From positions 893 through 64,892 of IMG/VR virus record IMGVR_UViG_3300035199_000417: a stretch of DNA of 64,000 bases. The stretch is one strand, 5' to 3'. Each line of letters opens with the position of its first letter. Within the stretch, counting starts at the first letter, position 1. Both the position numbers and the translations under genes were made by a program. This stretch comes from a virus (Duplodnaviria; Caudoviricetes). A model generated the notes under the pieces. The model had not been told where the DNA came from. It saw only the letters and a program-made list of their open reading frames with translations, and searched no databases. This document shows, in pieces, positions 13,801 to 61,679 of this stretch.

Positions 13801-14076
13801 TTACGCACCGCCAGCGGTCGCGGGATCGCGATTCGGTGGCAAGTTACGGATCGCAACGGATTCTCTCATGCCTACTTTGCCTTCGAGGTGTTGGCTGCGA
13901 AGCGCGTCTGAGAAGAAGTCGCTGCTATCACTCTGTCGTTGTGCGCTCTTGTAAAGGTGTTCCTTCCAATGCAACGCAGAATCTGGGTCTAAAGCTGCCA
14001 TCCTTGGCTCCTTTATAATAATTTCGGTAGCAGTACCGTGAATAACGTCAACTCCGTTGACATTAGTCGGCGGCAT
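13801..14076 (-). CDS. hypothetical protein
   Basis: 91-aa ORF in the operon; may start at the internal MAALDP. Confidence 0.5.
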   Translation of the reverse strand: MPPTNVNGVDVIHGTATEIIIKEPRMAALDPDSALHWKEHLYKSAQRQSDSSDFFSDALRSQHLEGKVGMRESVAIRNLPPNRDPATAGGA

Positions 14077-15085
14077 GTCCCTGCACCTTGTCTACCCCCC
14101 TGAATCCTATCCGTAGCGGCACCCCCAGGGGTTTGGATTGCCGCAAAATTTCGTCATCCGTGACCGTCCCGTCGCCGTTGGCATCGAAGTAGATGTCCAG
14201 CAAAACGGGAGGTAGTCTGTTTATAATACCACGAACTACCGCATCATCCAACTGTGTGAGCGGCCCCTGTGGCCCAGTATCGCCCTGCGGGCCTTTAATT
14301 TTTGAAATGTGGTCCCTGAGCAATAAAGCGGCCACCTTTGGGGCCAGCGCATCCGCTAGCTTCTCGTAGTCGATCTTGTCGCCAACCACTGGTGGTGGCG
14401 GAGTGTTATCTACAGGAGGTGCTTCTGACTTGGGTGGACCCACCCGACTAGGGGGCTTTCACGTTCCTCCCGGAGGGCAGAGCCACTTGATCTTTGCCAG
14501 AACTCGCTTGGCGAAGTCGCCAATCACCTCGGGTTCTACAGCGTTTGTATGCGTCCACACCGGAGGGTTTCCCGTCCCGGTGATCTCAACTGCCATCCCC
14601 ACAATCTGGCACCCGTCATTGAAGATGGGCCCACCGGAGTCACCCTGGCGAACCGTCCCCTCTAGGCGGTACTTTGTCTTCAGCTTCGTAGCCTTGAATG
14701 TGCCTGATCCGTAGCCGTAAGCGAGATAAACTTTGCCAGCCTCGGCTATGCCGATGGTGTACGGCTTCCACAGTTCGCTCGTCTCGACAGCGAAAGCAGC
14801 AATGTCGTTGCCACTACCATCCATCCAGACGTGTACATTACTTCCGCCGACACTGTGGGGGATAGCTACTAGCGTCTTGTCTAGATTCTTGGCCCAGGCG
14901 TTTCCTGCCGTCGTGTCCACAACGTGCTTCGCTGTTATCATCAGCGCGTAGTGTTTGTCGCCCGTAGTTTTCGAAGCGATTACGAATCCGGTGCCCACTC
15001 GGTCACCACGTCCAACCCGGAGTATCTTCGACCCGCTAACAGGGGCCGCTACCAGGAAAATTAAGACAGCTAAGAATGTTCTCAT
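14063..15085 (-). CDS. secreted trypsin-like serine protease with in-frame UGA at 14459-14461 (candidate selenoprotein, 340 aa if read through)
   Basis: Signal peptide; triad TAKHV / DIAAF / GDSGGP; ORFs 14459..15085 and 14063..14443 are in one frame separated only by TGA; the extension has a Pro linker, Gly-X-Y triplets and an EF-hand-like loop. Confidence 0.75.
14432..14445 (-). promoter_or_regulatory. bacterial SECIS-like hairpin
   Basis: GGGUG-GGUC-CACCC, with 13 nt between the UGA and the stem; GGUC apical loop. Confidence 0.6.
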
Positions 15086-15088
15086 GCG

Positions 15089-15487
15089 TTACCTTTCTGG
15101 CCAGTCACCCCATAGACTACGGCTACCACTTGATTGCCCGTCGAATTGTTGTTCCGTTATCTCTGGATCACCCTCCGTATGCGTATATTCTACCCTCTGC
15201 GCCCGTATTACCCGAAGCACTCCGTCCTCGGCCCAGATCAGGCCGTGGGCTGATTTCCCGTTCTTAATGGGAGAGAAGCGTCGGGCGTTGGGAGCCCCTG
15301 TGCCCCACAACCACCAGGATATGGAGTAGCCAAGGGTATCGTGATAGTCCCAGAGGATGAACTGGAGGCCCCTGCCTCCGCCCACTCCCTGATTCATCTC
15401 CAATTTCTCGCACTGAACCTCCTGGAGGAAGTCATCAGTCTGCGGGACTATGGAGAGGACGATTGTTGCTCCGATGATGGGGGACAT
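15089..15487 (-). CDS. hypothetical protein, hydrophobic N-terminus
   Basis: 132 aa, directly upstream of the protease. Confidence 0.55.
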   Translation of the reverse strand: MSPIIGATIVLSIVPQTDDFLQEVQCEKLEMNQGVGGGRGLQFILWDYHDTLGYSISWWLWGTGAPNARRFSPIKNGKSAHGLIWAEDGVLRVIRAQRVEYTHTEGDPEITEQQFDGQSSGSRSLWGDWPER

Positions 15488-15883: not shown

Positions 15884-16063
15884 TTATTTTTTTGGGCAAC
15901 ATTCGCTACAACTACAATCTTCGCAAATACATTCGCTGTCCGAAGAACATGCCTCGCAACACACGCAAACTTCGCACTGGCACTGTGACTTGACCCTGTA
16001 CAGGGCATAAATGCTGCCACAAACAGCAGCCAACAGTAAGAGTTTTCCTACTACACTTTTCAT
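15884..16063 (-). CDS. 59-aa membrane-anchored Cys-rich, metallothionein-like protein (not in ORF track)
   Basis: MKSVVGKLLLLAAVCGSIYALYRVKSQCQCEVCVCCEACSSDSECICEDCSCSECCPKK; GGAGG RBS; TAATG coupling. Confidence 0.7.
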   Translation of the reverse strand: MKSVVGKLLLLAAVCGSIYALYRVKSQCQCEVCVCCEACSSDSECICEDCSCSECCPKK

Positions 16064-16789: not shown

Positions 16790-17449
16790 TTACATCCTCC
16801 GCAGGATATCACCAACCGTTTCAAAATCATCGCTTCCCAATATCCCATCGACAAACCCATAGTAAAGCGCGTCCTCTGATGTGAGCCACCAATCGTGCTT
16901 CTCTTGCATCCGCTTATTCAAATAATTCTTTATTTTTGTGGGGCCCATGTCCGAGAAATATTCGCCGTCTGCTACTGCGTCTACATAAGAGGCCAGCATC
17001 TCTTCCCTAATTCGTTCTTCCCACTCAGCCGTTGATTGTGCTGCCCGGAATGTCAGTCCGTCAAACTCGCTGTACCCTTCGTGTATGAGCCAGTCGCATG
17101 AGGGCATGTTCACCCGCAAACTGTCGCCCTGTCGATGGCACCCAGTTGTAATCACCGTGCCCATACTGGCTACGATGCCGTGGCATATAAGAAGTATTGG
17201 AGACGTGCTGGTAGCGATGGCGTCTCGGATGACTATTCCGCAGCACCAGTCCCCGCCGATGCTGTATAGATGGACGGTGATGGGTTGGTCGGATGCCGCC
17301 TGAAGGATTCTCAGGTTCTTTACAAAGGCGAGACCCTCATCCCCCTCGGCCACAAGCTCACCACCAACAAACAACTCTCGCTGGGCGATGACGATGCCGT
17401 AGTCGTGGGCGCTCTTAACCGTGTCATTATCTGGCTTCTTTACCGCCAC
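16790..17449 (-). CDS. clpP: ClpP-like protease subunit
   Basis: RELF, SIGGD, GIVASMGTVI (Ser), LIHE (His), DWWLTSEDALYYGFVDGI. Confidence 0.85.
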   Translation of the reverse strand: MAVKKPDNDTVKSAHDYGIVIAQRELFVGGELVAEGDEGLAFVKNLRILQAASDQPITVHLYSIGGDWCCGIVIRDAIATSTSPILLICHGIVASMGTVITTGCHRQGDSLRVNMPSCDWLIHEGYSEFDGLTFRAAQSTAEWEERIREEMLASYVDAVADGEYFSDMGPTKIKNYLNKRMQEKHDWWLTSEDALYYGFVDGILGSDDFETVGDILRRM

Positions 17450-17729
17450 GTTTCTTCTTCTCTTTCATTGTAAAGCGGTACATCTGTGTAACTGTCTTGG
17501 CGTCGGTCAACGGGCTGATGATCGTCACCCTCCCCAGCGATTCCAGTAGCCCCGCCTTCTTGAACTCCAAGAGCTTGGACAGGGCGGTTCTCGACGAGAT
17601 GCCTCGGTACTCGGCAAACTCCTTGGAAGTAAACCCACCGTCTGGCCTGCCGTCGATCCCGCTTTCATGGAACAGCGCCTCATCAGCGACCTCCGCAAAA
17701 CGCTTCAGGCTGTCAAAGTCGCCACCCAT
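17427..17729 (-). CDS. winged-HTH protein
   Basis: GFTSKEFAEYRGISSRTALSKL...AGLLE. Confidence 0.6.
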   Translation of the reverse strand: MGGDFDSLKRFAEVADEALFHESGIDGRPDGGFTSKEFAEYRGISSRTALSKLLEFKKAGLLESLGRVTIISPLTDAKTVTQMYRFTMKEKKKRGGKEAR

Positions 17730-18706
17730 TATTTCTTCTTTCGCTTTCGAGATAATGTCAGCGGCATCAGCGACGATTTCCCATCAACAATCTGGACGTT
17801 TATATGTAAAAACGACTCGTCGGGTGCCACGATTTGCAAGCTGTATCCATGTCCCCAGTCGTTTATAGATGACCGGGACAACTGCCACACCGGGACAAGT
17901 GTGCAGAGGCATCCTGGGTTAGCTGCCATGATTTGGCCCACCCCAGGTTTCCGTGAGTAGCTGATGTCAGGCCGATGACTGTGTCCGAAGACTACGTTGG
18001 TGGCGTAGCGGTCAACCGCAATCCGGGCGGCGTTCTTGGCGGTGCTGACCTCATGGACGAACAAACAGTTCCCTAGCTTCAGGGTGCCTCGCTCGCTACA
18101 GGTGTCGTTGAACTGGTCTCGTCTGTAGAATTTGATCTTCCGGGTGGCGAGATTGAGGCGATACTCCGGGTCAAGCACCTCCAACAAGAGCTTCCGGTCA
18201 TCGTCGTTCGCCAGCGTGTGGCCCATGATCCATTTCTCAACCCGCTCACAGTGATTCCCCTGAATCATGTGGTACTCCGCGCTGGGGCAGCATTCCTGTA
18301 GCTCATTGAGCCACTGGTTGGCTGCATCTAAGTCCTGTGCGTAGCTATACTTAGCCTGCGAGATTGTGAACGGACTCTGGTGTTCAGCTAGAAAACCAGA
18401 ACACTCAATGTGATCCCCCAAAAGAACTACCTGGGCAATGTCCAGGGACTTGAGGTCGGCCATGCAGGCAGCCCAGGCAGCCTTGTCGAGGTGGCATCCA
18501 TGCGTATCACCAATGATCGCCCGGATATACCCCCCCTTGGGGAGTCTTGCGGGCTTGGTGGGAGGAGTGGGCTTAGTCTGCCCAATTCTAGCTAGCTGTT
18601 TTGCAATTGCCTTATTCTGCTTGCGTGATTCAGCTAGCTCCTTTCCAAGAGCATCAACCCTCGCCTCTAATACCGCGCATTCGGCCTCCAGAGCCTTGCT
18701 GTCCAT
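17729..18706 (-). CDS. calcineurin-like metallophosphoesterase
   Basis: GDTHG, LLGD, GNH, FVH, FGHSH. Confidence 0.88.
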   Translation of the reverse strand: MDSKALEAECAVLEARVDALGKELAESRKQNKAIAKQLARIGQTKPTPPTKPARLPKGGYIRAIIGDTHGCHLDKAAWAACMADLKSLDIAQVVLLGDHIECSGFLAEHQSPFTISQAKYSYAQDLDAANQWLNELQECCPSAEYHMIQGNHCERVEKWIMGHTLANDDDRKLLLEVLDPEYRLNLATRKIKFYRRDQFNDTCSERGTLKLGNCLFVHEVSTAKNAARIAVDRYATNVVFGHSHRPDISYSRKPGVGQIMAANPGCLCTLVPVWQLSRSSINDWGHGYSLQIVAPDESFLHINVQIVDGKSSLMPLTLSRKRKKK

Positions 18707-18725: not shown

Positions 18726-21700
18726 CTACGGTAAAATCACAAGCGGGCTTGAGTGTTTCTTTTTCTGAGCGTTCCTTCTCCTGCTATCCACACTCCCTCC
18801 ACTTGCCGCCCCCAAGCGTACCCTTTGGTATGCGGGGGATGCCCTCAGTTTCTTAAGCACACGCTTAAGAGCCGGGCTGTCGCTGTATAAGGCGATCCAG
18901 GCTTCAGCCGCCAGTTTTTTCGCCTTGAACTTCTTCATCCTCTTTTGATAATCCTCTTTTTCGTCTTCGTCGGCACGGGGATCATAGATTGGCAAACTTT
19001 CAGCCATGCTAACTATCTTAGCCTGAGACCAGACCAGCCTCTCAAATGCCTCCTGAACAACTATCTCGGAGTCGTCCACGCCCCGCCCACTCTTCCATTT
19101 CCTTACTCTCCTCTTGTGATCGGCTGCTGGCGTTTCGCCCTGAATAGGTTTGGTGCGTAGTGACGGGAAGGAGGCACCAGTGGCCTCGGCCTCAATATAC
19201 TTGTCCGAAATGGCGTTCATCTTCTTGGACGACTTCTTAATCTCCTTCTCATCGTCGGCCAAGCGGGCCTCTACCAGATCGTCCCATGTGCCTGCTGCAC
19301 CCAGCTTGACCGCATGGGCAAACTTGCCAGCGATCTGGCCGTCTACATCCTTTTCCCGAACAGCTTTATTATACCCTTTATCCGTCCGATACAGAATCTC
19401 AGTCGATCCATCGTATTTCGGCTTCGAAAAGATTGCTGGTCCTGCGATTTGCCTGACAGCATGGGTGGGAACCCCGTAGTATCCAGCCGCCTGGAGCCCC
19501 TCCTGGAAGACATTCAGGAGACCAGCAGCCGCCTTGCTCTCACCCTCGTTAGGGCCGTTTTCATATCTCTCGTCGTTCCACATGATCCTCATCTGTGCGG
19601 TCACGGATGCCAGGGAATCGAAGGTGTCCTTGATGGCCGCAATCGCTACCGTCTCGCGGAGCCTCGAATCGTAATCCTCCCTGATCGGGCCCGTCACCGT
19701 CTCGACCCCGTATCCAGCTATGTCGCCGTGGATAATCCAGTTGCCAAGCATTTTGGTGGCAAACTGTTTTGGAGTGAGCCCCAACTTCTCCCAGATGCTG
19801 ACCTCTTCATCGTCGTCGCCCCATCCGCCTAACGCCCATAGTGATTGGATAAGTGTTCGTATCCCCGCCTGCATAAACGAAATCATCATCGCATTTGAAA
19901 ATTGGCTCAGAAAAACCTTCCTCAACATCTCTCTAGGGCCAATGTCTTTGTGGCTGTAATCCAGCCAAGCCTGAATGGCAATGTTCAGGTTTTTGTTTCT
20001 CTGGGTGCTATACATGGTCAGTAGTTGCACTAAAGCGTTCTGCCTGCCCTCCATTGCTAAGTCGGATACAGTCAGCGGGTTCCATGTGGGCTGAGTGTTT
20101 TCAAATACCTCCTCCGTGCGTCTGGCGGTCGCCCTGAGAAGTTCGTCCCCCGTTAACTTCTTCTTTTTCATCTCAAGTTTGGCTGCCTTCCAGACCCTGA
20201 TGACCACTCGGCTGTCACCCCACTTGATCCAACTTAAGGCTTTGTTGGAAACCCACTCGGCCTTGGTGTCCTTCATACCGTAAAATTCCCGGAAGCCAGA
20301 CGAACTGGCCGAAGGAGTGATGATCTGGTGTGCGCCGCCCCTTATCCTCGAATACAGGATGGCCGAGTGTTTCTCAATCTCCCGCATGGCCTGCCCTGAG
20401 TAATGGATGTCATCCACGCTCAAGTCACTGAAAAGTAAACTGCCGAGTTTCATGTCAGCGGCTGCTGTGACTAGGCTGGCGGTCTGGTAGGCCATGATTT
20501 GTGGTTTGAAGCCCAGTGTGCCGGTGTGGACTATCCTCTGGAACTGCCTTGTGGCCTTCGCTATGGTTCCTTCCTCGGGCATGTCCAGCCCCTGGTATCT
20601 CTTCAGCGTCTCTCGAAGCGATTCCAGCTTCTCACCACCCATGTGGACTCGCTCACGGACTTCCCCCTCTACCTGATTGAGAAGTGTTATAGCGTCCGCG
20701 ACGGCCTCTCCCTTAGCAATGAACAGAGAACTTCTATTTATGCTTTCAAAGAAGGACACCATGCCGCCCTCGATCACAAAAGCCTTTTCGCTGTGTGCGC
20801 GTGGCTTAAAGATGTGCTGGTTTTCCAGCTTCTTTTCCGTGACCCGTCGATCCATAGCGGCCTGATCCTTAGCCTGACGCTCCCTACGTCGCGGCCAATA
20901 GTCCTCCCTGCTGGCAATCTCATGCCCGAATACCTTTCGCCACTGTTTGTTTAGTGTGTCTCGCTGTGAACCGTTGACGTAGGCGAACATCGCATTTGCC
21001 ACGGCTATCATCTTCGGGTGTCTCGCGGCCTCCTTGTATATGACTCGGATGTCATTCGCGTTCAACGCCACTGGCCTCGTCTCGGTTCCCTTGCCGAGAG
21101 CGCTCTTGAAGAGGACTCCTTCGTTTTTGTTGTCGAGTATTTCAGAGCGGGTCTCGCCGTCTGCCAGATTAAGCATCAGGCCCATGAACTCGTCCATCGT
21201 CATGTCGAGTGTGGACCCGCGAGCGCGGCTGCCATCGGTACGGTCAGGCAACCTGATGGTAAAGAAGTCCTCGTCCCAGGTCTTGAGGTCTTCCTGTGTG
21301 ATTCTATTATCGGCCATCACCTCTCGCATGTACCCCTGCGCCGCCAGGGACAACTCAGCGAACTTGCGTTCCCCATCCCGGAGATTATCAACCATTACCT
21401 TTTGTGCGGCCTTGTTGCGACCAAATATTTGGACTAGCCTCGTCTGGTAGTTCAGTTGTGAGTGAGTGGCACCCTTCCACACTCGACCGGGGAGGCTGGT
21501 CCTGGCGAGCTTCCTCTCCCTCCGTTTCCCCTTACGGTCCCTCACAAATCTGCCGCGAGTCTTTCTCCATATCTTCTTGATGGCCCCTTCGGCGCTCGCC
21601 ACCACCCTGGCCGTCTCCTTGTCATTCGCATGAGACAAGAGTTGGTTCTTGATTACTGTCTGGTGAGCCGTGGCCCGGATTATCTTGGCGAGGTTTACGA

Positions 21701-24700
21701 TGTCCTGCGTGGCCATATCGCGGATGTAGGTGGCTCCCGACTTTCGTAATATCTCGTAGGCGGCGTCTTGGAGCCACGTCGGGATTTCGCCAATGTCGTC
21801 CTGCTTCATGGCAGCGTCCAGGGTGCGGACGGCCTTTGCCAGGGTGGCCTCGTTAGGTTTAGATAAGTTAAACCCGCTAAGAATCTTCTCTAGCGATTCC
21901 TGATGCTCGGTACGAAGTTTGGAGCGGCTAGACTCCTTGACGGCATCCCTGACATCCTGAATAGCAGTATTCTTATCATAATTGTCAAGTATGCGTTGAG
22001 CGGCCTTCCAGACTCGATTTAACTCCGCTGGAGTACGGGCTTTAAGGAGGGTGGGGATCACCTTGATTAGCTCTAGCTCGGGCAGTATCTCCTTCATGTA
22101 CGAAAAGAGTAAGAGCTTCGTCTCAACCATTGCCTCTTGCCCAAACAGCCAGCCCTCTTTAATGCCTCGCCGCTTACCTACTTCGTATCCCTCCGCGCGG
22201 CCCTCTCCTCTGCCGTATCTCTCGCCAGCCTTCCAGCCCCTGTCCATCCCCTTGACCAGCGCCGTGTACGAACCCTCTGCGTCCCCGGCCTTGTATCCGT
22301 CTCGCCAGCCCTTGTTCATGCCGGTGATGAGCCCCTTAAGGAACTCTTCCCTAGCCGTATCTCTAGTGCCAGCCTTGTAGCCCTTTCGATAGTGCCTCTC
22401 CTCAAACGCCTTGGCCATCCTGACAAGCATTGACGGAGTCAGCCGGGGATCGTGGTGCTTCTCGTAGCGGATGATCTCAGATGCCAGTGCCTGTCTCTCC
22501 CTCTGATTCAAACCGGCCTTCTCACCAGCGACATCTATCAGCTTTCTTACCCCGGTTAATGGTGCCCTCTTCTTTGGCGTCTCCCTAAAGGAGGCTCGCC
22601 CTGTCGGCCTCCGCTCTTGTTTTTCGACGAACGCCCTCCAGTTACTCTCGCGAATCTTTCTCGCTTCCACGTTTTGTTTCTTTGCGTTCTTCGGCGTTTT
22701 CCCATCTTTTTCCAGCCCTATCTTGGTAACCTTTTTTACGAACACAGTGTTGCCAATGGAGATTGCCTCCTCGGCCTCAAGAACCTGCTCGCCGGTTATC
22801 TTGTTGTAAAAGAACGTCGCCTTTCGTGGATCGTAGCCGATAGGAATCCAGTCGTTAATGTCAGCCGGTATCCTATGTTGTCCGCGTTTCCCCATCTCCC
22901 CCTCGACCACAGCTATTGTCGATTTCGTTGCACCTTCCGTCAGAATTTTTAGGGCCTTGCCTTCGTCGTGGCGGAACCTAACCTTACCCACAAGCCTGAC
23001 AAAGTTGTCGTACCCAATAATCGCGCCGACTTCGCCTTTCTCGGGGTCTGCTTTTATTTTTCCACCTTTTTTAAACATGCTGTGGACGGAGATGGCATAT
23101 TTCTGTGCCTTCTCGAAATATGGGATGTTGATGCGAGCGCGAACCATCTTCCCTACAAGCCCCTTGGCTCGATTTTCAAAGACTCTTCCTTCGAAGCCAG
23201 CCCGATCCTCCAACTCCCCTTTTGTCGGCTTCATGTGGGCTTCAGCTTTCAAGTGTTCCTTGTTGCTTACTTCAACTTTTTTCCACACAGGGTACTTGAA
23301 TTTCGGCCACGGCGTGGCCTTATCTAAAGGTGGCTCCCTAAACGAATAGCGGCCCTCACGCTCGGCCTCCTTAAGTTTTCGAGATGAAGCAAGCAGCTTT
23401 CGGACTTTTTGGATCGACCTCAATTCCAATTCCCTCAGTTGCTTTTCGAGTTTCGCAATCGCCGCATCGGCTGCCTCTATCTGTGAGGGGTCTGAACCCC
23501 TCATATATAGAAAGTCTCTCTCTTGTCTCTTAGCCAATAACTTGTCGCGAAGAGATTTTGCTTCTCCCGTATCCAGTACCTTCGGCTTGAATGCTTTCTG
23601 CTCCTCTGCTTTCTCTATCTTGGCCTGGATGCGGAGGCCAGCTTCTCTGGACTCGGCCTCGTCTCGCCTCTTCAGGTCAGCCAGTGTGTCTTCCCGCATG
23701 AGTGTTTCAGATAGGCCCAGTACCTCCTCAAGCGCCGTGACCGCTTTCTTGCTCTTGATACCCAGCATGTCAACAATGGCGTTGATAAACGCCTCTAAGA
23801 GATTCTTGCCACGCAGGTGTGCAAACTTGGTAGAGCGGGGAACCTTGATGGAGGCTAGAAACTTTCGAAACTCCGGGTTAGAAAATGCCTCGGCTACAAG
23901 CTCTGCCTCATTTGTAAGGCCGTAGAATTTTGAGTGCCAACTGTTAGCGGGACGGCCAAGGTTGGGGAACGCCCGCTTCTTCTCGACAAACCGCGAACGC
24001 TTTAGAATAGTGGTCAGCCTCGCATACACCTCTTTGGTTTCGGGGCCAATGTGTTTAGACCAAGCGGTGTACATTTTCCCTTTTTCAGTCTCGGGCGACC
24101 AATATCTTCCTCCTAGCCACCGCTCTAAAGTCATCGTTCGGGTGGCGGCGTGTGTCGCTTCATGTAACAGCGTTTTCAAGACAGAGGTCGTCGCGTCTCT
24201 TCTTATCCAATCCGCTCTCGCTCCCGCCCAACTTGACTTCCTAACTGCGCGTATGGCCTGCCTAAGTAATATCGCGTCAGTAAAGAGATTGATTGTGGGG
24301 ATTGTTTGATCTGGAAGCGCCTTCTTCCTATCTATTCCCTCCATTTCTTGCCATGGATCATAGTTCCCGCCTATGGTCTTTTGATCTTTTGCTTTGTATT
24401 CATCGGAACGACCCATGACCGCCAACCTGGGGACACCTGTCCGCTGTGATTGCAATATAGGGAGAAGCTCTTTCCAGAGGAGGTGCTGGGCCGTCGCGGC
24501 TTCACTTACAGAATCCCGAGCGGCTACCTCCTGGTCATACGTCCCTGCGAGGATCGCGCGCTGGGTGTCCATCATTCGATGGGGCTCATCAGGCTGATTC
24601 ATCAGACGGTCGATAGCCTCTTCCAGCGTGTCGCCCGCCCTCGGCCAGTATTTCTCCTTATGGGCTTCGAGAGTATCACGGACCATGTCGAACACGGGGG

Positions 24701-27700
24701 CGTCGGGGTCGGTCAATTTGGATGCTTCATCAAACGGATTCCAATCTTCCGCTGGATCGCGATAAGAAAATCTCTCCTGCCCCTTCTCCTGGGCGGATGC
24801 CCTAATTTTATCGGTGAGATCGAAGCCATGACTCTCCTTCGTCGTGGTGCGGTATTCCGTCTCCATTTCCCCCCCGAAGTAGTAGGACAGTAATGCCCCC
24901 GCCCTGGCCTCTTCTCCACCAGCGTGTCGGTCCATGGCTTGCGAGAATGTGAAACCCGAGTGCATGTCTGATATCATGCCTTCCAGTTCGTCCTCAAATT
25001 CCGCTGCAACAACATCAATTGAGGGCCAGTTTTCTCTGGTATGCCGAGAGGATATAAAGGTGGGGCCATCCTCAAGCCACGGAGTTTTCCAGCTTTGGAA
25101 GCCCTGCTCGCCGCCCTCAGATACGTCTGGAGCGATGTCCCGGAATTTTTCGACTTCCTCCACTGTTCGATCCGGGCCTTTGTATCCTGTACCGAAAGGA
25201 ACTTCTCCAAGGTTAACCTCAACCGTCCCTACCTTCTCCGCCTTCTTCCCTTCCTTAAACCTTCTGAGGATGCTCCCGTTAGTGTCGTTAACTAGGTTCC
25301 TGTCGTAGAATCCCTTCATCCCCTCGCCGCCAATCGAGAGGCCGTCGCCCTCAAACACGCCGCGAGGCTGTCCCGAGGCAACCTCCTCGCGTATCTGCTT
25401 GGCCATGCGGCCACCGACCACGTCATCCAGGGTGACACCCCTGTGGTGATTTATGTCTGTCATCCCCTCCAGGGGTAAGTATTCCCGGAAGACCTGCTCC
25501 CCATCTTTGAGTGCCGTAACCTTGACTTCTTTTTCCCCAACGACTCCTTCTTGCCGCACACCCACCCACTCGATACGATCCACCTTCGAACGAAGGTCGT
25601 CCTCGTATCTCTCGATCTGCACTTCGCCCGTTGTCCAGGCTACCTTGTCGAACGGCTGTCCTTTCCCGTTGACATTCGTAGAGGCCCACTGGATAGCCCT
25701 CTTCATAGCCATCATGGGCCATGTCTTTTTCCAGGGGGCGTCGGGCATTGCCCACCGCGACCGCTTAATTGAGGCTAGGCGGGCCTCTAGCGGTTTTGTT
25801 TCCGACTCGGCCTCGGCCATTAAAACCGCCACACGCGATTTGATGTCGTAGAGTTTCTGCTCGTATTGCCCAAGCACTTCAGTTTCCTCTAATGCCTCTT
25901 CCTCCTCCTTCAACTTGTTCAACTTCCCGTCCCGTTCTTTCTTGATCTCTCCTATTTTCGCTTCGAGCTTCTCGACCTCGACCTTGATCTCGATGGGGGC
26001 CTGATATCCAAATTCCTTGGACACCAGCGTCTGTGCCTTGGCCACTATCTCGTCGTGGGTGGCACTATCAGTTAAATCATATAAGAGAGGATTATCGGTA
26101 ATTTTCCTCACAAGGCTCTTGACCTCTTCCGTGCGTAGTCCTCGGGCCTTCTGGTGCCAATCACTCTGAATCTCTTCTATGAAGAGAACAACCTTCCCGT
26201 CTTTATCTGTCCGCTCGTTAAAGCGAATGTGGGCGAAGATGTTGTCTGCCTTGTCGGCATAGTGCCCCTCGGAATACGTCTCCGTGTACCTGCCAACAAA
26301 GTCCCTAAGGTCAAGCTGGCCGTCCCGGTCTAAGACATGCGGTTCTGAATAAGGTTTCGTTAAAATATCTGGGGGCAACCCAAACTTCTTAGAGGCTTTA
26401 CGAGCCCACACTGCGGCTATATTCGGATGAAAGAGTCCAATATAAGTCTCCCCAGTGGCCCGAGTTAACCTCTCCTTTTTCAGATCACCCGGTCTCACCC
26501 CGAAGTAGTCTTTGAACCTCTTGCTAGCGGCTCCACGGGCCGGGCCTCCGTGAGGGGCCAGTGCCGCTTCCCTCTCCCAATTACGGTAGAGGAGGCTGCC
26601 TTCCTTCATCACACTAAGCGCGAACTCTCTAACTTGTAGGTATAGCTTTCGTTCGAGCTTATCTCTGTCTATCTTGGGCTTGCCATTCGCATAGCGGATG
26701 GCGTACTCTTCTTGCGTTTCTTCGTTAGCGCGGTTGTACTCCTCTATCGCCTCATCTCCCCTCATCTTGTCTGCGCGACGGCGAGCAACCTGTAACGCAT
26801 CTCTAAATTTCTCAAGATGTTTTTTCTCGAACTCGGTAGTCTCCTGCTTGGCACCCATCGTCAGAAGGATGGTGCGAGGGTTCACTGCTCCGTCAAGGGA
26901 ATAAGCGCGATGTCTGTCAGCCGCTCCCTCCAGCACCACCTCATGGAGTTCGACACCGGCAGCTATTGCGTCCAGCACCTGTTGTATCGTCACCATCTTG
27001 TCTTCGCCGCCAAGAAGTTCTGCCAAGCCGCTCCAATATATTTCCTCGCTCTTGACGCCGCCCTTGTCGAGCATCTTCAGGACTTCTTTAGCGGACTTCT
27101 TGCCGCCAAACTTCTTCTGTTTAGCTATGTCCTCGGCCTTCGAGTACCAGACATCGCTAAAGCTGGCACGGCCCGCCTTCCTAAGCGTCCTCTCCGTGTC
27201 ATCTATTTCGTCCTGAAGCTGCTCGGCAACCTGCTGTAAATTAAATTCGACATTGGGACTGACGTGTACCTGGATGGCAGCCTCCTCGACAGCCTTCTCT
27301 ACGCCTCTCTCGTACTCGATGTGGGAGACCACGTCGAAGTACATATTTCGACCAGTCTGGCGGGCCAGGGAAACCTTATCAGCCCCTGGTATTTTCCCGA
27401 GCATTTCTGTCGCGGCCTGTTCCAGTTCCAGGGAGGCTTCTCGGAAGTTAGCCTTGTTGTCCCCTAACTTGGCCAGGGCGTCTGCGAAGCGAGACGTGTC
27501 TACGTCTCTTAGGCTTGCCCTTCCTGGGCCCTCAACATCGCCTTCTTCACGTCGTTCACGATCCTGTCTTGCCACTCCTTGTTCGACTCTCCAGATATCT
27601 TCTGCGTTGGCAGGGACAGAATCAGGTCTCCCTTCGAGGATTTCTTCGAGGGTTTCGGTGACGGTGAAGGTTTCGGTGGTCTTGCCTTTGAGTTTCCGTG

Positions 27701-30700
27701 TGTAGTCTTGCGGAACGATGGGGGGCCCTGTTTTGCCATCTTCTAGTTCTTCTTTCGTTTTAATTAGAGTACCAGTTTGGAGGTCGAATATAGCGTCTTG
27801 ATCGGCCCAGATAGCTGCCTTCACGGCGTCCGCATAGGACTTCAGGGGCCACGAAGCATCCAGTATGAATCGCTCTTCCTTCTCCCCGGTCTTGGGGTTG
27901 ATGTAGTTCTCATTAAGCCAACCGCCGAGGTGCGCGCCTTCCCTCTGGAATACTTCCTTGTGTTTGTCCAGATAATCCCGAAGCGACTTCTCATCGAGTT
28001 CAACTTCGGTGGGCGTCCACTCGGTCTTCTTATCGACACTGACAGCGAACCCCTTACCGGCCATCGTCGCCTGGAGGTCTGCCGTGAAGCCGTCCGGGTT
28101 CTCGCGGATGACCGTCAAGAGATCGCTTATTTTGGCGTTATCAAGGCGAGCAGCCGCCTCTTCTGCGTAACTGTATCGCCCAACGCGAACGTCGGTGAGT
28201 GCCCGTGGCTTCGACGGGGGCCTTACTTGGGTTCGGGTTCGAGGTCGCCATCCAGCATCCCATGCAACACTCGCTTTAGCACGGAGTTCAGCAGGGCCCT
28301 GCTCTCGGGCGTATGATCTGGCCCCGTCGCTGAAGAAGGCAATTCTTGAGGCTGCGTTTCCGAGGGCGTGGTAGGTTGACTTTTCGAAGAACCAGAGAAC
28401 CGCTTGCGCGTCCTGGGGCTTGAGTCCCGTTTGCTTCCCGACTTCTCGAAAGAATCTCTTGGCATACTGTCGCTCCTTTGCTGATGGGGCATCGTGGAGA
28501 CCTGTGTCTTTGTCCGGGGTATCGAACAACCCGCCAAACTCTCTGGAAAATGTCCTGATCGCCCAGCGGTCTATGGTCTCGTCGCTTACCCCATTCATGT
28601 TCAAAAAGAATGGGCCAATTTTGTCACCGAATATGTACGCACCGGGAACTATCTTGTCGGCGCGGCCACCCAGAGACATGGTGGGCGTGTCCTTATATAT
28701 CCCTCCACCTTCTATACGCGGGTCGCGAAGACTCGGTTCATTTGCCACCTTGCGGCGTATTTTGCGTAACTCTCCAACCGAATGCTCGGACAGCAAAAAC
28801 TTAAGGGTGCCCTTTACTCCCCTTTTATTAAGCATGTACTGCATCGTAGATAAGGCGTAAGCGAGAGCATTCCCCTGCTTGCCAAATATCTCATTAGATT
28901 CTGGATTGAGCTTGGGGACGATTCCGGTTCTGTCCCACTCGCCGTAAGCTAGGCCAGCAAATCTCCAGTTCAATTCGGCGGCGTTTCCATTAGATGTGAT
29001 GGCCGCGAGCATTGAGAACACGGCCCTGGCCTGCTTGTAACCCTTTACGTTTCCCTTTAGCTCCGGGAAGATTTGTGAAGTGATGTCATACGCCGCTTTC
29101 ATGTCAAGGTTGTACCAGTCTACTCCAGTGTTTTCCTGCTGGAGTTGGTATCTTGCGTTAGCTACAGCGCGAGACACCGCTGCCGCGAAATCGGCGGGGT
29201 CTTCATAGTTTGTCCGTGGCCGGTTGATGGCTCTCCCCACGTCGGCAACTGTGATCTGTTTGCCCTTCTTTCCTCCAGATGGAACAACCTTTCCAGCATT
29301 TACCAGCAAGGCCCTCGCCTCTCTGTCTTTTTTCGTCGAGGCTTTGGCCGTGCGGTCGAGACCGGCCTTGTATGAGAAGCGGGGGGCATACGAGAAGCGG
29401 GGGGCAGCCACCGGCTTCTTCCCATCAAGAACGTCGTCCAGTTCATCTACCTGGGCCTTTACCCTTACGAATGACTTCCTAGCCGCTGTCTCAGGGGCCG
29501 CTGTCATTCCAGAGGGCTCGGCTGCGGCCAGTTCAGAGAAGACCTTCTTAAACGCCTTCGCGACTTTCTTGGGGATTCCCCTGTTCTCTGGGTCAAACCC
29601 CGTGACAAATCGTACCATTGCATGGAGGCCCCGTCTGGCCAGATTCGGGTCTTCGCTTCTGATGTAAGCTGCGATCTCGGCAGCGTGTTGCATATGTTCT
29701 AGATATTCTGACAGGGCCTCTTCTGCCATAAAATCAGGATCATTCATATTCTTCTTGTGTGTGACTATCTGTTCCTTAATGGCCGCTATTCTGTCCTTTA
29801 GCCAATTCCTTTTCGGCGATTCAAGCCAAGCCTCGTACCCGTGAGAGATACGAGGCCCCGGATCGAACATCGAGGCAAGTTCCTTTTCCAGTTCCTCCAG
29901 GGTCGCTTCCAGATGCTCCAACTCAGTGACCATCTTTTCCCGATATTCATGCCTCGACGCAATTAACCCCTGCGGGTCTCTTTCTTTAACTGTGTCGTAA
30001 ACGTCCTGCCATAACTTCTTCTCAACCTCACTGTTTTTCGCACCCCGCTTCAACGAGTGCATAAACTCATGGAACCCAACCCCGAATAGCATGTTAGGGT
30101 TCATTTCACTAACGAGATGCGAAGCGATATAGACGGTGTCCCTGTCTTCACTGTACCCATTAAATTGCCTTGCGGGGGTTTTTACGATTACAAGACGGAC
30201 ACCTGCCGAAGTTAAGATTTTCTCAAGTTCAATCTCGTTCTTTCCGTAGGTCAGGGGATTCGCAATCGTTGGAGCGCCCTCACCCTCGATGAAGAACATC
30301 TCGGGAACAGTTTCTTTTTTTCCTAACAAAACGTCTCGGGCCTCTGCAATCGAGAGATACTTCACCTTCGAGTCTGGTAACATTGACTTCAAAATCATTC
30401 TTTGCCACTTCTCTTGCTCCTCTGCAAATCTCTTCGCCCGCTCCCGCTTCTTTTCTATCTTTGCCAACTCTACGTCATCAACGGCCTCGCCCTTCGTCTT
30501 ATCCAACTCAGTCTGTTGATCCCCCTCATTCTTTTTATGTGCCTCTGCCGCCTCGGTCATCGCGGACACCGCTTCGACTGCGTCCTTTCTCTCCTGTGTT
30601 ATCAGCCCCTCCCCCTTCTTCGGTTCCGTCGTCTTCCCCTTTTTCCTGTCGCGGAAGCTGGCCCTTCCCTTGTCCTCTCCTTTAGCCTTCGCCTCCGCTC

Positions 30701-33700
30701 TCTGCCTCATCTCCTGTTTAGCGAGTTCGGCCCTAGCAGCACGAGTACCGGGGAAGGCGATGTCCACCACATGGGCAAGGGCAGAATCCGCCGAGCCAAA
30801 CTTGAGAGGCATGCCGAATTGGTCATCAAGAACCACTCTCACTCCCTCGTCCCCAAGCAACTGGGGTGCCTTACCGGGGCTGGTCACTTCGATCCGATAA
30901 TGAGGGACTTTTTGAAACCCCTCCTTACCAACCTCTTCTGTGGCACGCGCATCTGGAGGTATTATCCTGTAGGAGACATTTCCGTCACCCTTGGCGGTCT
31001 CCCCTCGATTTATAGCGTTTGCAAAGTTAGCGACCGTGTCTATCGCGCCGTGAAGGCTTCTGACCTGCTGGTCTCGCCAACCTGTTTTTTCCAGGTCGGC
31101 CTGCATGGATTCCGGTAGGCTTGCGATGTAGTTATCAACCTTCACCTCCGCTCTCTGCTTAAGCGCCTTCGTGGTTCTGGGGATATCCTTACGAGCCTCT
31201 GGCTTGTCAGCAAGATTAAGAGCCGTCTCGTTAATGGTATCGTTCATCAGGCGGATTGGCTTTGCTTCATGCTGCCGCTTGATCTTTCCTTCTCTCTGTT
31301 TTCGCTCCCCTTCGACCTTTTTCTTCTCTTTAGTAATTTCTTCCTTTGTCTTGTCCTTCTGTTTCTCACTGACGACCGGGGGGCCCGGCTTCTTGGCAAA
31401 TGTCTTCTCGGGGCGAGACGGTGGTTTGGCTGGCTCAGAACTAACCGTGGCGTATTCTGGTAAGTTTCCTTCCTTGTCGAGGTCAACTTTCCATGTTCTT
31501 CCTGGCTCGCCACGAACATTACCACTATGCCCAGTGGTCACTACCGTTGCCGTGCCTGCCTCCTCATCAACCTCCAGAACTTTTGCCTCTACAATCCTTC
31601 CACTGAAAGGTGCTTCCTCTTTTTCAGGATTAAACTCCGGTAGCCCGTGTTTCTCACTTTGCGCGGCGGTTACCTTCGCATTAAGCGTGAGGGTTTTCCC
31701 TTCCAGTTCTTTCCCTTTGGGAGCTTCAGTGACAGGGGCCTCGGTGACGACCGGGGTCGGGACTACTTCGGCTTCAGTAGTGACGGGAGTGGTGACTTCC
31801 GGGGGGGCTTCCGGGGTGGCTACGACTTCGGGGACAGTCTCTAACTCCCTTTGTTTTTTTACGAAGGCCCTTAGTTGTTTTTCAGTTGCTTTGCTGAAGT
31901 CCGTTTCTTCATATTTCGTTCCTAAAGCTATTTCTTCTGCCATCTCTACGAGTTGTGGCTTATCCGCCTCCTTTAGCTCTTGATCCGCCAATGCTATTAA
32001 CTCATCTATCTCGTCCCCAGTAGGCTCACCAGTCGTAGTAACTTCGTCCAGCACCTCCCCGGTATCCGGGTCTAACACCTCACCCGGATCAGTTACCTCG
32101 ATGTCCTCGTCGATGGCTGCGTCCGGGTCTCGTATCACTCCCGGATCATGTACCTCAATGTCATCCGGGTCTCGTACCACACCCGGATCATGTACCTCAA
32201 TGTCATCGGCTGGGTCATCCGGGTCTCGTATCACGCCCGGATCAGTTACCTCGATGTCATCGGCTGGGTCTTCTTGACGCACATCGGGGTCATCTCCTCG
32301 CTGGATGCCCGTGGCTTCCTCAAATTCCTTCTCTTGCTTTTTCCTCTCATCATCAGCCTCCTCCCCAAGTACCTCCATCACCTTTACCGCCTCTTCGGCA
32401 GCGGCCTTGCTCTCCTTCCCCTCACGCTCGGTTGGCTTCTTTTTCCCCTCTTGGTACGCTTTCCAAAACTCCTCAGCGCCCAACCGATTGCGGGATTCAA
32501 GGCGATAATATATTTCCTTAGCCTGTTCTTCACTCTCCACCCCTTCAGCGAAGGCAGCAAACTGACCCGGTTTTGACTTTTCGACAAGCAAGTTCTGCTG
32601 GTGTTCGGTCAGTTGGCCCGACATCATTTCGGAGTAGGCCATCTCTTCCGCCAGATCAATGTTCGGGTCATCCTCGACCGTGCGGTCTAAGCCTAGCTGG
32701 TCGGAGTATTTCTCCTTGAGTCTGGCAAATTTCTTGGCGTCCATGTATTTTTCTACATAGTCGTACCCTTGCTGCCCCGCATAGCGACCACCCTCTGCCA
32801 TGCCAATCAGTACAGTGGTCTGAATTGCCGTATCCTTCATCGCCTCTTCGAACTGATCGGAGTCCATGGCGTGGAAGTCCATGGAGAAAATAACGTCCGT
32901 CATTAGCTGGGCGTAGGTGGTCGCTGATTCTTCCAGAAGTTCCGGGGGGAGGTTCGTGCCGATAGCTGCAAAGGCCCCCTGAATAGCCCTGGGATTGAAA
33001 AAACTGTTAATTGGGGTGCCGTCTTTAAGTTTTCGAGATGCAGCAAGCAGCTTTCGGAATTGTGTCTTGGCCGCTCCTTTAAGGAGTCCCCTGGACATCA
33101 ATCCCTCTAAGCCATGAGCCCCCATCTTCGAGAAGGTCATCGCAATACCGGCCTCAGCGCCGCCCTGCATCAAAGAATAGGCCAGGGCCTCCCACACACT
33201 GGGCTTAACTCCTTGGGCATTGATTTGGCTCCTCTTCCGGTGGTAGCTATCAGCGCCAACTCCCACACCAAATCCGCCTCCTAGATAATACGGCAACGCT
33301 TGGGGGGTGGCTCCGAGTGCAGAAGCGGCCCTCCCAATAAGCAACATCTCGGTCAGGTTTGCGCCAGCTTCGGAGAGAACCCGCGACACCTCACCCCCTA
33401 GAAATGACTTTTCGGCGGCAAGACTTGTCTCTGCGGTGACCTGTTCCCTGGCGTCATTTAGGTATTGGCTGAAGGCACCGAGCGTGAGTATGTTCGCGGG
33501 GCCTACACCGCCCTTCCTCAACGCATCCATGGCCTCGTCAATTATCGGGATATAGAATTTCTGATCCGCTGCGATCTTAGTAGCCGAGTCGAGAGACCTT
33601 TTGAACTCATAGATATGATCCTGTTTTTCAGCGTCCGACATCGCCTCATATTGGGCCAATCCCTCCTTGGTGGACCCGAATAAACCGTCGCGGATGTTTC

Positions 33701-61045: not shown

Positions 61046-61679
61046 CGGGGAGGTCATCCAGGATGTTGGTGATGATACTCCTGACCTCAACTAGGGTCGG
61101 GTCTTTTTTCCGAATTACCTCGGCCTCTTCCTTCTTGTGAACGACCGGCTGGGGTGGAGGCTTTTCCGCTGCCTGCAACCCCTTGAAGAACTCCTTGGGC
61201 TCGTTGCACCAATACTGCAACTTGTTTACAGCCGCCTGAGATGGGGCCTCCAGAACGTCATCAATCGACAGGATGACTTTATTGGCCTTGGGATTGCGGG
61301 CTCGTCGCCGCATGGCGGGGTGGGATGCGATCCAGTTGTTCTCGGTCTTGGGGACAGTCTTCAGCGGGAAGCGATTGACAATCGACTCGAACTCCGACTG
61401 GGCCGCGATGTCACCCTTTTGGAGGTCCGACTCCACTTGGAGGTACTGCCTGAATAGCTCTCTCTCTTCAGTGGCCCCGCGATAGTCGTGATCCCCGGCA
61501 ATCCTGTGGACAATCGTCGAGTACCCTTTCTCGCCTGTCTCCTTTTTGATCGCGAGAATCTCCCGCTTTACCTTCCTCCAGTTGCCCTCTCGCTCCAGAC
61601 GAAACTGCCACAGGGCGTGAGGATCATCATGCTCTGTATGGATTTTCTTCTTAGGTTGCGTCCTTGCCATTCGCTTCAT
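61032..61679 (-). CDS. hypothetical protein, candidate terminase small subunit
   Basis: Directly upstream of and overlapping TerL; position only. Confidence 0.4.
   Translation of the reverse strand: MKRMARTQPKKKIHTEHDDPHALWQFRLEREGNWRKVKREILAIKKETGEKGYSTIVHRIAGDHDYRGATEERELFRQYLQVESDLQKGDIAAQSEFESIVNRFPLKTVPKTENNWIASHPAMRRRARNPKANKVILSIDDVLEAPSQAAVNKLQYWCNEPKEFFKGLQAAEKPPPQPVVHKKEEAEVIRKKDPTLVEVRSIITNILDDLPDAHN

What the first reader, a model, noticed from the sequence alone, without database searches (positions are those of the whole stretch)
14063..15085. Candidate phage selenoprotein: secreted serine protease with in-frame UGA and a SECIS-like hairpin
Seen: the protease ORF ends ...KWLCPPGGT-TGA (14459-14461) and the same frame continues KPPSRVGPPKSEAPP... 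for 131 more residues. The downstream 'ORF' has only a GTG inside a hairpin and no clear RBS. After 13 nt the mRNA forms GGGUG-GGUC-CACCC, with the loop 18 nt from the UGA. Established: bacterial SECIS elements lie just 3' of the UGA with a G/GU in the apical loop, and E. coli fdhF has the same GGUC loop core; Sec often pairs with a nearby Cys, here C-x5-U. Readthrough adds a Pro linker, Gly-X-Y triplets (GPQGDTGPQGP) and an EF-hand-like loop (DANGDGTVTDDE). Inference: the phage borrows host SelB/tRNA-Sec (none seen here), so selenium supply would switch between a short and a long protease form. Sec-containing trypsin-like proteins may already be known from metagenomes, but a setting inside a phage late operon is unusual.
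Basis: partly seen in the sequence, partly recalled or inferred. Interest (0 to 1): 0.9.

Follow-up and report, generated by a model that had tools for sequence, protein, structure and literature searches.

The report
Candidate selenoprotein in a marine phage
A marine phage's secreted protease gene has a conserved TGA where related phage proteases have a cysteine, then continues in frame into a second domain, so it is probably read through, most likely as selenocysteine.

Summary
On the minus strand, a 208-codon trypsin-like protease (15085..14462) ends CPPGGT-TGA (14461..14459). The frame stays open for 131 more codons, through a proline-rich linker and a conserved C-terminal module.

TGA is an ordinary stop elsewhere in this phage, so the code is standard. 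It is not an assembly error: an independent contig and contigs from 3 of 4 other marine runs carry it.

A phage relative with 56% protein identity has the same CPPGGT-TGA, the same frame and a homologous extension. Neither extension has an ATG, a Shine-Dalgarno site or a shared start position.

Distant phage homologues are single fused proteins. In 20 of 27 a Cys sits in the TGA column, in motifs such as CPGGQC and CPPGGSC.

Both TGA lineages carry GGUC at nt 22-25 from the U of UGA, as E. coli fdhF does. In the window a 5-bp stem closes it.

My odds: selenocysteine about 0.5, near-cognate readthrough 0.2, a truly split gene 0.22.

Weak points: the hairpin is small, and the relative does not keep the same stem. 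The host and its sel genes are unknown. DNA was available for only two lineages.

The parts
14462..15085 (-). Trypsin-like (S1/PA clan) serine protease, 208 codons, with an N-terminal hydrophobic signal-like segment (residues 1-18, 15085..15032). Catalytic His54 (14926..14924), Asp94 (14806..14804) and Ser150 (14638..14636).
   Evidence: Pfam Trypsin_2 scores 32.1 bits against a 27.6 cut-off. H54, D94 and S150 are invariant in 29 aligned sequences. The AF2 model has pLDDT above 90 over residues 20-200. Foldseek matches DegS, HtrA, Rv3671c and V8-type proteases at probability 1.0.
14462..14479 (-). Invariant tail C203-P-P-G-G-T208. It is the first half of the Cys-pair motif C-P-(P)-G-G-x-C found in fused homologues.
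   Evidence: All 5 close homologues (56-100% identity) end with W-x-CPPGGT. Cys is in this column in 22 of 27 fused homologues.
14459..14461 (-). In-frame TGA (codon 209), the proposed recoded codon (Sec). It is followed by A.
   Evidence: Unchanged in L001 and in contigs of runs X2, X4 and X8. TGA also stands at the same place in L080. It aligns with Cys in 20 of 27 fused homologues, and in 11 of 11 chosen CxnC homologues when the codon is written X.
14432..14445 (-). Candidate minimal SECIS: a 5-bp stem GGGUG/CACCC closing the tetraloop GGUC (14440..14437, nt 22-25 from the U of UGA).
   Evidence: dG is -6.8 kcal/mol. Loop sequence and distance match E. coli fdhF. Only 3 of 43,828 TGA triplets have such a tetraloop hairpin at this offset, including this site. 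The hairpin is not part of the MFE fold of 71-82 nt windows.
14375..14458 (-). Proline-rich linker, codons 210-237 (KPPSRVGPPKSEAPPVDNTPPPPVVGDK).
   Evidence: The frame is open and Pro-rich from the first codon after TGA in both the window and L080. Their length differences are multiples of 3. PPSR directly after the Cys/TGA column recurs in fused homologues P0018, P0044 and P0045.
14066..14374 (-). Conserved C-terminal module, codons 238-340: IDYEKLA helix, short Gly-X-Y run (14293..14261), LPPV strand, DxNGDG loop (14185..14150) and PLGxPLRIGF.
   Evidence: 48% identical to the L080 extension. The same module sits at the C-terminus of fused phage proteases and of proteins with other N-terminal domains, P0012 and P0027. 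In the full-length AF2 model its pLDDT is 70-85.
14063..14065 (-). TAA, the stop of the long form.

Best explanation
The 14063-15085 stretch is one gene, not two. Its ancestor was a phage protein built from a signal peptide, a trypsin-like protease, a C-P-(P)-G-G-x-C Cys pair, a proline linker and a collagen-like C-terminal module.

In this clade of marine phages the second Cys codon has become TGA. I propose that host SelB with Sec-tRNA decodes this UGA as selenocysteine. SelB would be recruited by a minimal SECIS that places GGUC at nt 22-25 after the UGA. The result would be a C-x5-U pair and the 340-residue long form.

Ribosomes that terminate at the UGA instead release the 208-residue free protease. 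One gene therefore gives two products, and their ratio would depend on Sec-decoding capacity.

Shown here:
- conserved TGA, frame and extension in a second lineage;
- Cys at the TGA column in fused homologues;
- no credible separate start for the extension;
- the position of the GGUC motif.

Inferred, not shown:
- Sec rather than another residue at the UGA;
- SelB binding to the hairpin;
- a host with Sec machinery;
- any selenium dependence of the ratio.
For: 1. The TGA is real and the code is standard.
- It is present in L001 and in contigs of 3 of 4 other runs.
- Minus-strand genes stop with 19 TAA, 15 TAG and 12 TGA. A 5265-codon ORF is uninterrupted.

2. A second lineage agrees. L080 (56% protease identity) has CPPGGT-TGA, the same frame, no intervening stop and a 48%-identical extension. 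tblastn aligns residues 15-333 in a single segment across the stop.

3. All 5 close homologues end at exactly CPPGGT.

4. There is no plausible separate start.
- The extension has no ATG.
- The first in-frame starts differ: GTG at the 6th codon after TGA in the window, TTG at the 15th in L080.
- The SD score is -0.1 kcal/mol, against -6 to -11.6 for many ATG genes.

5. The fused family.
- Cys fills the TGA column in 20 of 27 fused homologues and the first Cys column in 22 of 27. P0054 reads CPPGGSC, with the same spacing.
- With X written at the TGA, 11 of 11 chosen CxnC homologues still align Cys there.
- The nearest atlas clusters are 100% Viruses, commonest Uroviricota.

6. The module appears as a stand-alone ORF only in this TGA clade (P0007, P0009, P0041, P0043). 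Everywhere else it is fused.

7. GGUC position.
- GGUC sits at nt 22-25 in the window and in L080, as in fdhF. GUC sits at nt 23-25 in fdnG and fdoG.
- None of 3 Cys-form relatives has it.
- Background for GGTC at that offset is 0.51% of TGA triplets. A tetraloop there closed by 5 or more bp occurs in 3 of 43,828, including this site.

8. These are the criteria used to call new selenoprotein families in marine metagenomes: flanking conservation, Cys homologues, a SECIS-like element and at least two TGA sequences (passages of PMC2398784). That paper also predicted Sec-containing trypsin-like and MucD-like proteases.
Against: - The hairpin is small: 5 bp, -6.8 kcal/mol. It is absent from the MFE folds. 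Folding z-scores are +0.6 and -0.6, no better than shuffles.
- L080 keeps GGUC but not the tight stem. Its best fold is a 9-bp stem with a 9-nt loop, or an alternative fold that pairs G22/G23.
- A loosely defined SECIS-like hairpin of similar energy occurs at 11% (window) and 4-5% (L080) of random positions. It also occurs in 2 of 3 Cys-form controls. Gly/Pro codons (GGN/CCN) favour such pairings.
- No Rfam family matches the region.
- The host is unknown. Neither phage record carries tRNA, tRNA-Sec, selB or selD, so everything depends on an unidentified host.
- The Cys pair looks structural, not like a classic redox motif.
- DNA was seen for only two lineages.
- In a third lineage the downstream ORF (P0009) starts at or next to the stop position and aligns Asp where the GGU Gly codon would be. 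This could mean a different arrangement there, such as an overlapping start in another frame.
- P0043 starts only 4 residues before IDY.
Confidence: 0.5

Rival explanations
1. Programmed leaky termination, as in the Q-beta A1 protein. The UGA is read at low frequency by a near-cognate tRNA, most likely Trp, without any Sec machinery. The cell gets mostly short protease and a minor long form with the collagen-like module.
For: The evidence for a single recoded gene applies here too: conserved TGA, frame and extension, and no separate start. The bases after the stop are A (window) and C (L080); I recall these as weak termination contexts in E. coli. There is no significant RNA structure. This reading needs no special host trait.
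Against: It does not explain why the TGA falls exactly in the conserved Cys column (20 of 27). It does not explain why the first Cys and PPGGT stay invariant in all 5 clade members if the partner residue became Trp. It does not explain GGUC at nt 22-25 in both lineages against a 0.51% background.
Confidence: 0.2
2. A truly split gene. A Cys-to-stop mutation cut the ancestral protein in two. The TGA always terminates. The C-terminal module is made separately, by reinitiation or coupling at a weak GTG/TTG, and may associate with the protease non-covalently.
For: Gene callers predict separate ORFs in every lineage (P0007, P0009, P0041, P0043). P0009 begins at or next to the stop position, which is compatible with an overlapping or adjacent start. 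An in-frame neighbour alone is common here: 8 of 46 genes. Short protease-only relatives exist, such as L233 and L236.
Against: There is no ATG, no SD and no conserved start position. TGA identity, the reading frame and an open Pro-rich spacer are all kept across 56% divergence, and indels are multiples of 3. PPSR right after the stop matches fused homologues. The module is never found as a stand-alone gene outside this clade.
Confidence: 0.22
3. A decaying pseudogene. A nonsense mutation inactivated the C-terminal part, and the open frame downstream is only a remnant.
For: A single TGY-to-TGA change is enough to produce this arrangement.
Against: The extension is conserved at 48% identity, with invariant motifs and no stops, in a lineage whose protease is only 56% identical. 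The X8 contig differs from the window at 14468 and 14423, on either side of the TGA; read against the codon positions, both are third-position synonymous changes (my own mapping, no call of its own). The length polymorphism at 14068 is 3 nt.
Confidence: 0.05

Closest known systems
E. coli formate dehydrogenase H (fdhF) UGA140 with its SECIS
   Same: An in-frame UGA is followed 18 nt later by GGUC, at nt 22-25, in the apical loop of a hairpin. Cys-containing homologues of the protein family exist.
   Different: The fdhF element has an extended lower stem (about -14 kcal/mol over 47 nt) and, as I recall, a bulged U. The phage element is only a 5-bp stem. The fdhF Sec is a catalytic Mo ligand in a cytoplasmic redox enzyme. 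Here the position is the second Cys of a Cys pair at the end of a secreted protease domain, in a virus.
Predicted Sec-containing 'trypsin-like serine protease' and 'secreted serine protease MucD' families from the Global Ocean Sampling metagenome (PMC2398784; passages read)
   Same: Marine origin, a protease of the trypsin superfamily, an in-frame TGA aligned with Cys in homologues, and a predicted bacterial SECIS.
   Different: In those families the Sec lies within the COG5640 trypsin domain, or in a CxxU motif. Here it lies in a C-x5-U motif at the domain boundary and is followed by a whole extra module. No phage context was reported there. I could not compare sequences, because figures and supplements are not held.
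Fused Cys-form phage proteases (e.g. P0018, P0054, P0010, L231)
   Same: The same architecture: signal peptide, Trypsin_2 domain, Cys pair, Pro linker, IDYxKLA, Gly-X-Y run and LPPV module. The nearest atlas clusters are Uroviricota.
   Different: They carry TGY (Cys) where the window has TGA, and they are called as single ORFs of 306-475 aa.
Q-beta coat/A1 readthrough protein (recalled, not checked here)
   Same: A leaky UGA at the end of a complete functional protein adds a C-terminal extension, which gives a minor long form.
   Different: Q-beta is an RNA phage, near-cognate Trp is inserted, and there is no Cys-aligned codon or SECIS-like element.
Mycobacterium tuberculosis Rv3671c (MarP) and the DegS/HtrA S1C proteases
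   Same: They are the best structural matches of the protease domain (Foldseek E about 1e-8, probability 1.0). I recall that Rv3671c activity depends on a disulfide, which suggests that a Cys pair can regulate this fold.
   Different: Sequence identity is 15-27%. They have no collagen-like module and no recoding. The disulfide point comes from memory and was not tested.

Membership tests
Bacterial selenoprotein gene (SelB/SECIS-dependent UGA recoding) | In-frame UGA with protein conservation on both sides, in at least two independent sequences | tested here: met
   The window and L080 both have CPPGGT-TGA and a homologous extension. The TGA is confirmed in L001 and in 3 of 4 runs.
Bacterial selenoprotein gene (SelB/SECIS-dependent UGA recoding) | Homologues carry Cys at the UGA position | tested here: met
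   Cys in 20 of 27 fused homologues. 11 of 11 chosen CxnC homologues align Cys with X. P0054 reads CPPGGSC.
Bacterial selenoprotein gene (SelB/SECIS-dependent UGA recoding) | SECIS hairpin just 3' of the UGA, with G/GU in the apical loop at a fixed distance | tested here: inconclusive
   GGUC sits at nt 22-25 in both lineages, as in fdhF. The window tetraloop hairpin is rare at this offset: 3 of 43,828. Against this, the stem is only 5 bp, it is not conserved in L080, the z-scores are not significant, there is no Rfam hit, and bSECISearch was not available.
Bacterial selenoprotein gene (SelB/SECIS-dependent UGA recoding) | selA, selB, selC (tRNA-Sec) and selD present in the translating cell | not testable with these tools
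   The host is unknown. tRNA-Sec, selB and selD are absent from both phage records. selA was not searched.
Bacterial selenoprotein gene (SelB/SECIS-dependent UGA recoding) | Selenium actually incorporated (75Se labelling or mass spectrometry) | not testable with these tools
   This needs an experiment.
Programmed stop-codon readthrough | Conserved stop codon identity with a conserved, open, in-frame extension that lacks its own start | tested here: met
Programmed stop-codon readthrough | Decoding by a near-cognate tRNA, independent of SelB | not testable with these tools
   This needs a reporter assay or mass spectrometry.
Trypsin-like serine peptidase (Pfam PF13365 Trypsin_2, PA clan) | HMM score above the gathering cut-off, a His-Asp-Ser triad and the fold | tested here: met
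   32.1 bits against 27.6. H54, D94 and S150 are invariant. Foldseek matches DegS, HtrA and Rv3671c at probability 1.0.
EF-hand calcium-binding domain | Pfam EF-hand model above its cut-off | tested here: not met
   EF-hand_5, EF-hand_1 and EF-hand_6 score 12-15 bits against cut-offs of 25-26. Only a DxNGDG-type loop is present.
Collagen triple-helix repeat (PF01391) | Pfam model match, or a long Gly-X-Y run | tested here: not met
   No Pfam hit for the window protein, which has only GPQGDTGPQGP. Two homologues, P0055 and P0060, carry PF01391.

The most novel reading that the evidence does not exclude
This is the first selenoprotein encoded by a bacteriophage. A marine tailed phage would be borrowing its host's SelB and Sec-tRNA through a minimal, fdhF-like SECIS, to replace the second Cys of a Cys pair with Sec. 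The Sec-decoding capacity of the infected cell, and so its selenium supply, would then set the ratio between a free secreted protease and a protease tethered to a collagen-like module.
Probability: 0.45. Interest if true: 0.9.

Novelty: new variant of a known kind. Interest (0 to 1): 0.8.

Why it matters
UGA recoding to selenocysteine is known in cells and, as I recall, in a few viruses of animals. My literature searches listed no paper on a phage-encoded selenoprotein (listings only). A 2022 review of prokaryotic selenoproteins has no occurrence of 'phage' or 'virus' in its main text.

If the Sec reading is right, three things follow.
- Phages can plug into the host Sec machinery.
- The Sec trait of a host could become a host-range factor for such phages.
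- A very small natural SECIS (14 nt) would be available for study.

If near-cognate readthrough is the mechanism instead, this would be a conserved case of programmed UGA readthrough in a tailed dsDNA phage. From memory I know no established case.

Either way, automatic annotation splits this gene in two, and the same is probably happening in other metagenomic phage records.

Tried and rejected
- Alternative genetic code (TGA as a sense codon): rejected. TGA ends 12 of 46 minus-strand genes and the long ORFs are intact.
- Sequencing or assembly error: rejected.
- A suppressor tRNA or tRNA-Sec carried by the phage: none in the window or in either record.
- Rfam scan of 13900-15200 at E up to 10: only three chance-level hits, none a SECIS.
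- RNAfold on 71-82 nt windows: no significant structure.
- Metagenome-contig scan: the patterns chosen were generic (GDSGGPIF).
- IMG/VR scans with P0004, the C-terminal alignment, the WxCPPGGT pattern and the fused alignment: only L080's contig is a TGA-clade relative. Of the 12 other loci, L231 (Cys pair CGPWGC) and L230 (only C-R-C at that place) carry a collagen-like C-terminal part on one ORF, and the rest are protease forms without it.
- Genome contigs: no relative, so no prophage and no host clue.
- INPHARED phages by tblastn: no match.
- No RNA holder was listed among the sequencing runs.
- The AF2 model of the C-terminal module alone was poor (pLDDT 64, pTM 0.30), so I ran no fold search on it.
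- From one search's 26 hits I fetched 13. Ten were not examined (P0013, P0014, P0019, P0020, P0022, P0024, P0026, P0028, P0029, P0031).
- From one search's 21 hits I left P0055, P0059 and P0060 out of the alignment because their coverage was low.
- Supplements and figures of PMC2398784 were not available, so I could not check whether its Sec-protease sequences overlap this family.
Full report
**What is there**

The feature lies on the minus strand. An ATG at 15085 opens a 208-codon ORF that ends ...KWLCPPGGT-TGA, with the TGA at 14461..14459. The same frame runs on for 131 codons to TAA at 14065..14063.

The first part is a trypsin-like serine protease.
- Pfam Trypsin_2 scores 32.1 bits against a cut-off of 27.6.
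- His54, Asp94 and Ser150 are invariant in 29 aligned sequences.
- The AlphaFold model has pLDDT above 90 over residues 20-200.
- Foldseek matches DegS, HtrA, Rv3671c and V8-type proteases at probability 1.0.
- The N-terminus is a hydrophobic, signal-like segment.

The extension has three parts:
- a proline-rich linker (codons 210-237);
- a module with an IDYEKLA helix and a short Gly-X-Y run;
- an LPPV strand, a DxNGDG loop and PLGVPLRIGF.

EF-hand models score far below their cut-offs, so I do not call the loop an EF-hand.

**Context**

The window is 64,000 of the 64,892 bases of an IMG/VR virus record. CheckV estimates it at 54% complete.

All large genes are on the minus strand. In reading order they are:
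- the large terminase (59081-61090);
- a 2164-aa tail protein;
- a 5265-aa ORF;
- a metallophosphoesterase;
- ClpP;
- several small ORFs;
- this gene;
- then an AAA_24 ATPase.

'Late operon' is therefore possible but not shown.

The stretch is held, wholly or in part, by marine metagenome runs of 16 studies. One of them may be the source of the record.

**Artefact and genetic code are excluded**

An independent contig (L001) has the same TGA. So do contigs from 3 of 4 other runs; the fourth run's contig ends at the codon.

Minus-strand genes stop with 19 TAA, 15 TAG and 12 TGA, and a 5265-codon ORF is uninterrupted. The phage therefore uses the standard code. Neither the window nor the two phage records contain any tRNA.

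**One gene or two?**

In-frame continuation alone proves nothing. 8 of 46 genes here have 131 or more open codons after their stop. Four further points argue for one gene.

(i) A second lineage agrees. L080 comes from a 67.5-kb IMG/VR contig that CheckV rates 100% complete.
- Its protease is 56% identical to the window's.
- It also ends CPPGGT-TGA and continues in the same frame, without a stop, into a 48%-identical extension.
- tblastn aligns residues 15-333 across the stop in a single segment.
- The linkers differ in length by whole codons.

(ii) All five close homologues found among 5.8 billion proteins end at exactly ...W-x-CPPGGT.

(iii) The extension has no credible start of its own.
- It contains no ATG.
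- The first in-frame start is GTG at the 6th codon after TGA in the window, but TTG at the 15th in L080.
- The Shine-Dalgarno score before the GTG is -0.1 kcal/mol. Many ATG genes of the window score -6 to -11.6.

(iv) The module is found as a stand-alone ORF only in this clade (P0007, P0009, P0041, P0043). Every other protein that contains it is a fusion.

**The ancestral architecture**

A full HMMER scan of 1.84 billion representatives, plus a follow-up search, found distant homologues of 306-475 aa that are single proteins. Each has a signal peptide, a protease, a Cys pair, a Pro linker and the same C-terminal module.

The nearest ESM-Atlas clusters to one of them are 100% Viruses, with Uroviricota the commonest phylum.

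In the 29-row alignment, 22 of 27 fused homologues have Cys in the column of Cys203. 20 of 27 have Cys in the column of the TGA. The motifs include CPGGQC, CPGGSC, CYGGQC, CINGFC and CPDGNC. P0054 reads CPPGGSC, with the same spacing as the window's CPPGGT-TGA.

Because I had written C for the TGA in that alignment, I repeated it with X. All 11 homologues that I chose for having the motif still put Cys in the X column. The unbiased figure remains 20 of 27.

The residues PPSR directly after the Cys/TGA column recur in P0018, P0044 and P0045. In the window these codons lie upstream of the putative GTG start.

**Sec, leaky stop or split gene?**

A TGA that replaces a conserved Cys, is kept across deep divergence and is flanked by conservation on both sides is the standard signature of a selenoprotein. 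The Global Ocean Sampling study used these criteria: flanking conservation, Cys homologues, a SECIS-like element and at least two TGA sequences. It also predicted Sec-containing trypsin-like and MucD-like proteases from seawater (passages of PMC2398784).

The invariance of Cys203 and PPGGT in all five clade members is easier to understand if a partner for Cys203 is still made.

The SECIS evidence is mixed.

For:
- I fetched E. coli fdhF, fdnG and fdoG. GUC occupies nt 23-25, counted from the U of UGA, in all three. fdhF has GGUC at nt 22-25.
- The window and L080 both have GGUC at nt 22-25.
- None of 3 Cys-form relatives does.
- Among 43,828 TGA triplets in 3.4 Mb, 0.51% have GGTC at that offset. 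Only 3, one of them this site, have it as a tetraloop closed by 5 or more bp.

Against:
- The stem is only 5 bp (-6.8 kcal/mol), and the hairpin is not in the MFE fold.
- Folding is no better than shuffled sequence (z +0.6 and -0.6).
- L080 does not keep the tight stem. Its best fold is a 9-bp stem with a 9-nt loop.
- A loosely defined SECIS-like hairpin is common: 11% and 4-5% of random positions, and 2 of 3 Cys-form controls.
- Rfam finds nothing.

Neither phage record carries tRNA-Sec, selB or selD. The host could not be identified.

In one further lineage the downstream ORF (P0009) starts at or next to the stop position. It aligns Asp where the GGU Gly codon would be. Without its DNA I cannot tell whether its first codon is simply a Leu codon read as a start, or a start that overlaps the stop in another frame.

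**Verdict**

A single recoded gene is well supported; I put Sec plus readthrough together at about 0.7. Within that, selenocysteine is the best single explanation (0.5), ahead of near-cognate readthrough (0.2). A truly split gene keeps 0.22, and a decaying remnant 0.05.

Functionally, both recoding readings give two products from one gene. One is a free secreted protease. The other is the same protease carried on a linker and a short collagen-like module that probably oligomerises. That last point is inference: the model of the module alone was poor (pLDDT 64).

**Novelty**

My searches listed no paper on a phage selenoprotein (listings only). A 2022 review of prokaryotic selenoproteins has no occurrence of 'phage' or 'virus' in its main text. 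The mechanism is a known kind. The setting (a bacteriophage), the position (the second Cys of a Cys pair at a domain boundary) and the very small SECIS candidate would be new.

Noticed in passing
window 18726-34523 (-): A single uninterrupted ORF of 5265 codons, followed upstream in the reading direction by a 2164-codon tail protein (42291-48785, phrog_6013). These are very large proteins for a record of about 65 kb.
   Followed up: no
window 15884-16063 (-); L080 6667-7110 (+): A small ORF a few genes upstream of the protease has a hydrophobic segment and then a dense Cys-rich tail with runs of C-x-C and C-x2-C. A counterpart sits at the same place in the relative. Its function is unknown.
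   Followed up: no
window 14066-14068 and 14261-14293: Population variants keep the frame. A 3-nt deletion near the C-terminus is seen in L001 and in run X2. One X2 contig lies twice over the Gly-X-Y run, which suggests a length variant of the collagen-like repeat.
   Followed up: partly
proteins P0012 and P0027: The same C-terminal module (IDxxKLA, Gly-X-Y, LPPV, DxNGDG, PLGEP) is attached to unrelated N-terminal parts, one of them a Cys/Gly-rich region. It therefore behaves as a mobile module.
   Followed up: no
window 16790-17449 and 17729-18706 (-): A ClpP-family protease (E 2e-18) and a calcineurin-like metallophosphoesterase lie between the giant ORF and the protease gene. The ClpP gene is syntenic in L080.
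   Followed up: no
L233/L234, L236/L237, L239, L241: Other IMG/VR phages carry short forms of the protease that end a few residues after the Cys pair (e.g. CPDGKCKVAK-stop) and lack the C-terminal module. Both short and long architectures therefore occur naturally in the wider family.
   Followed up: partly
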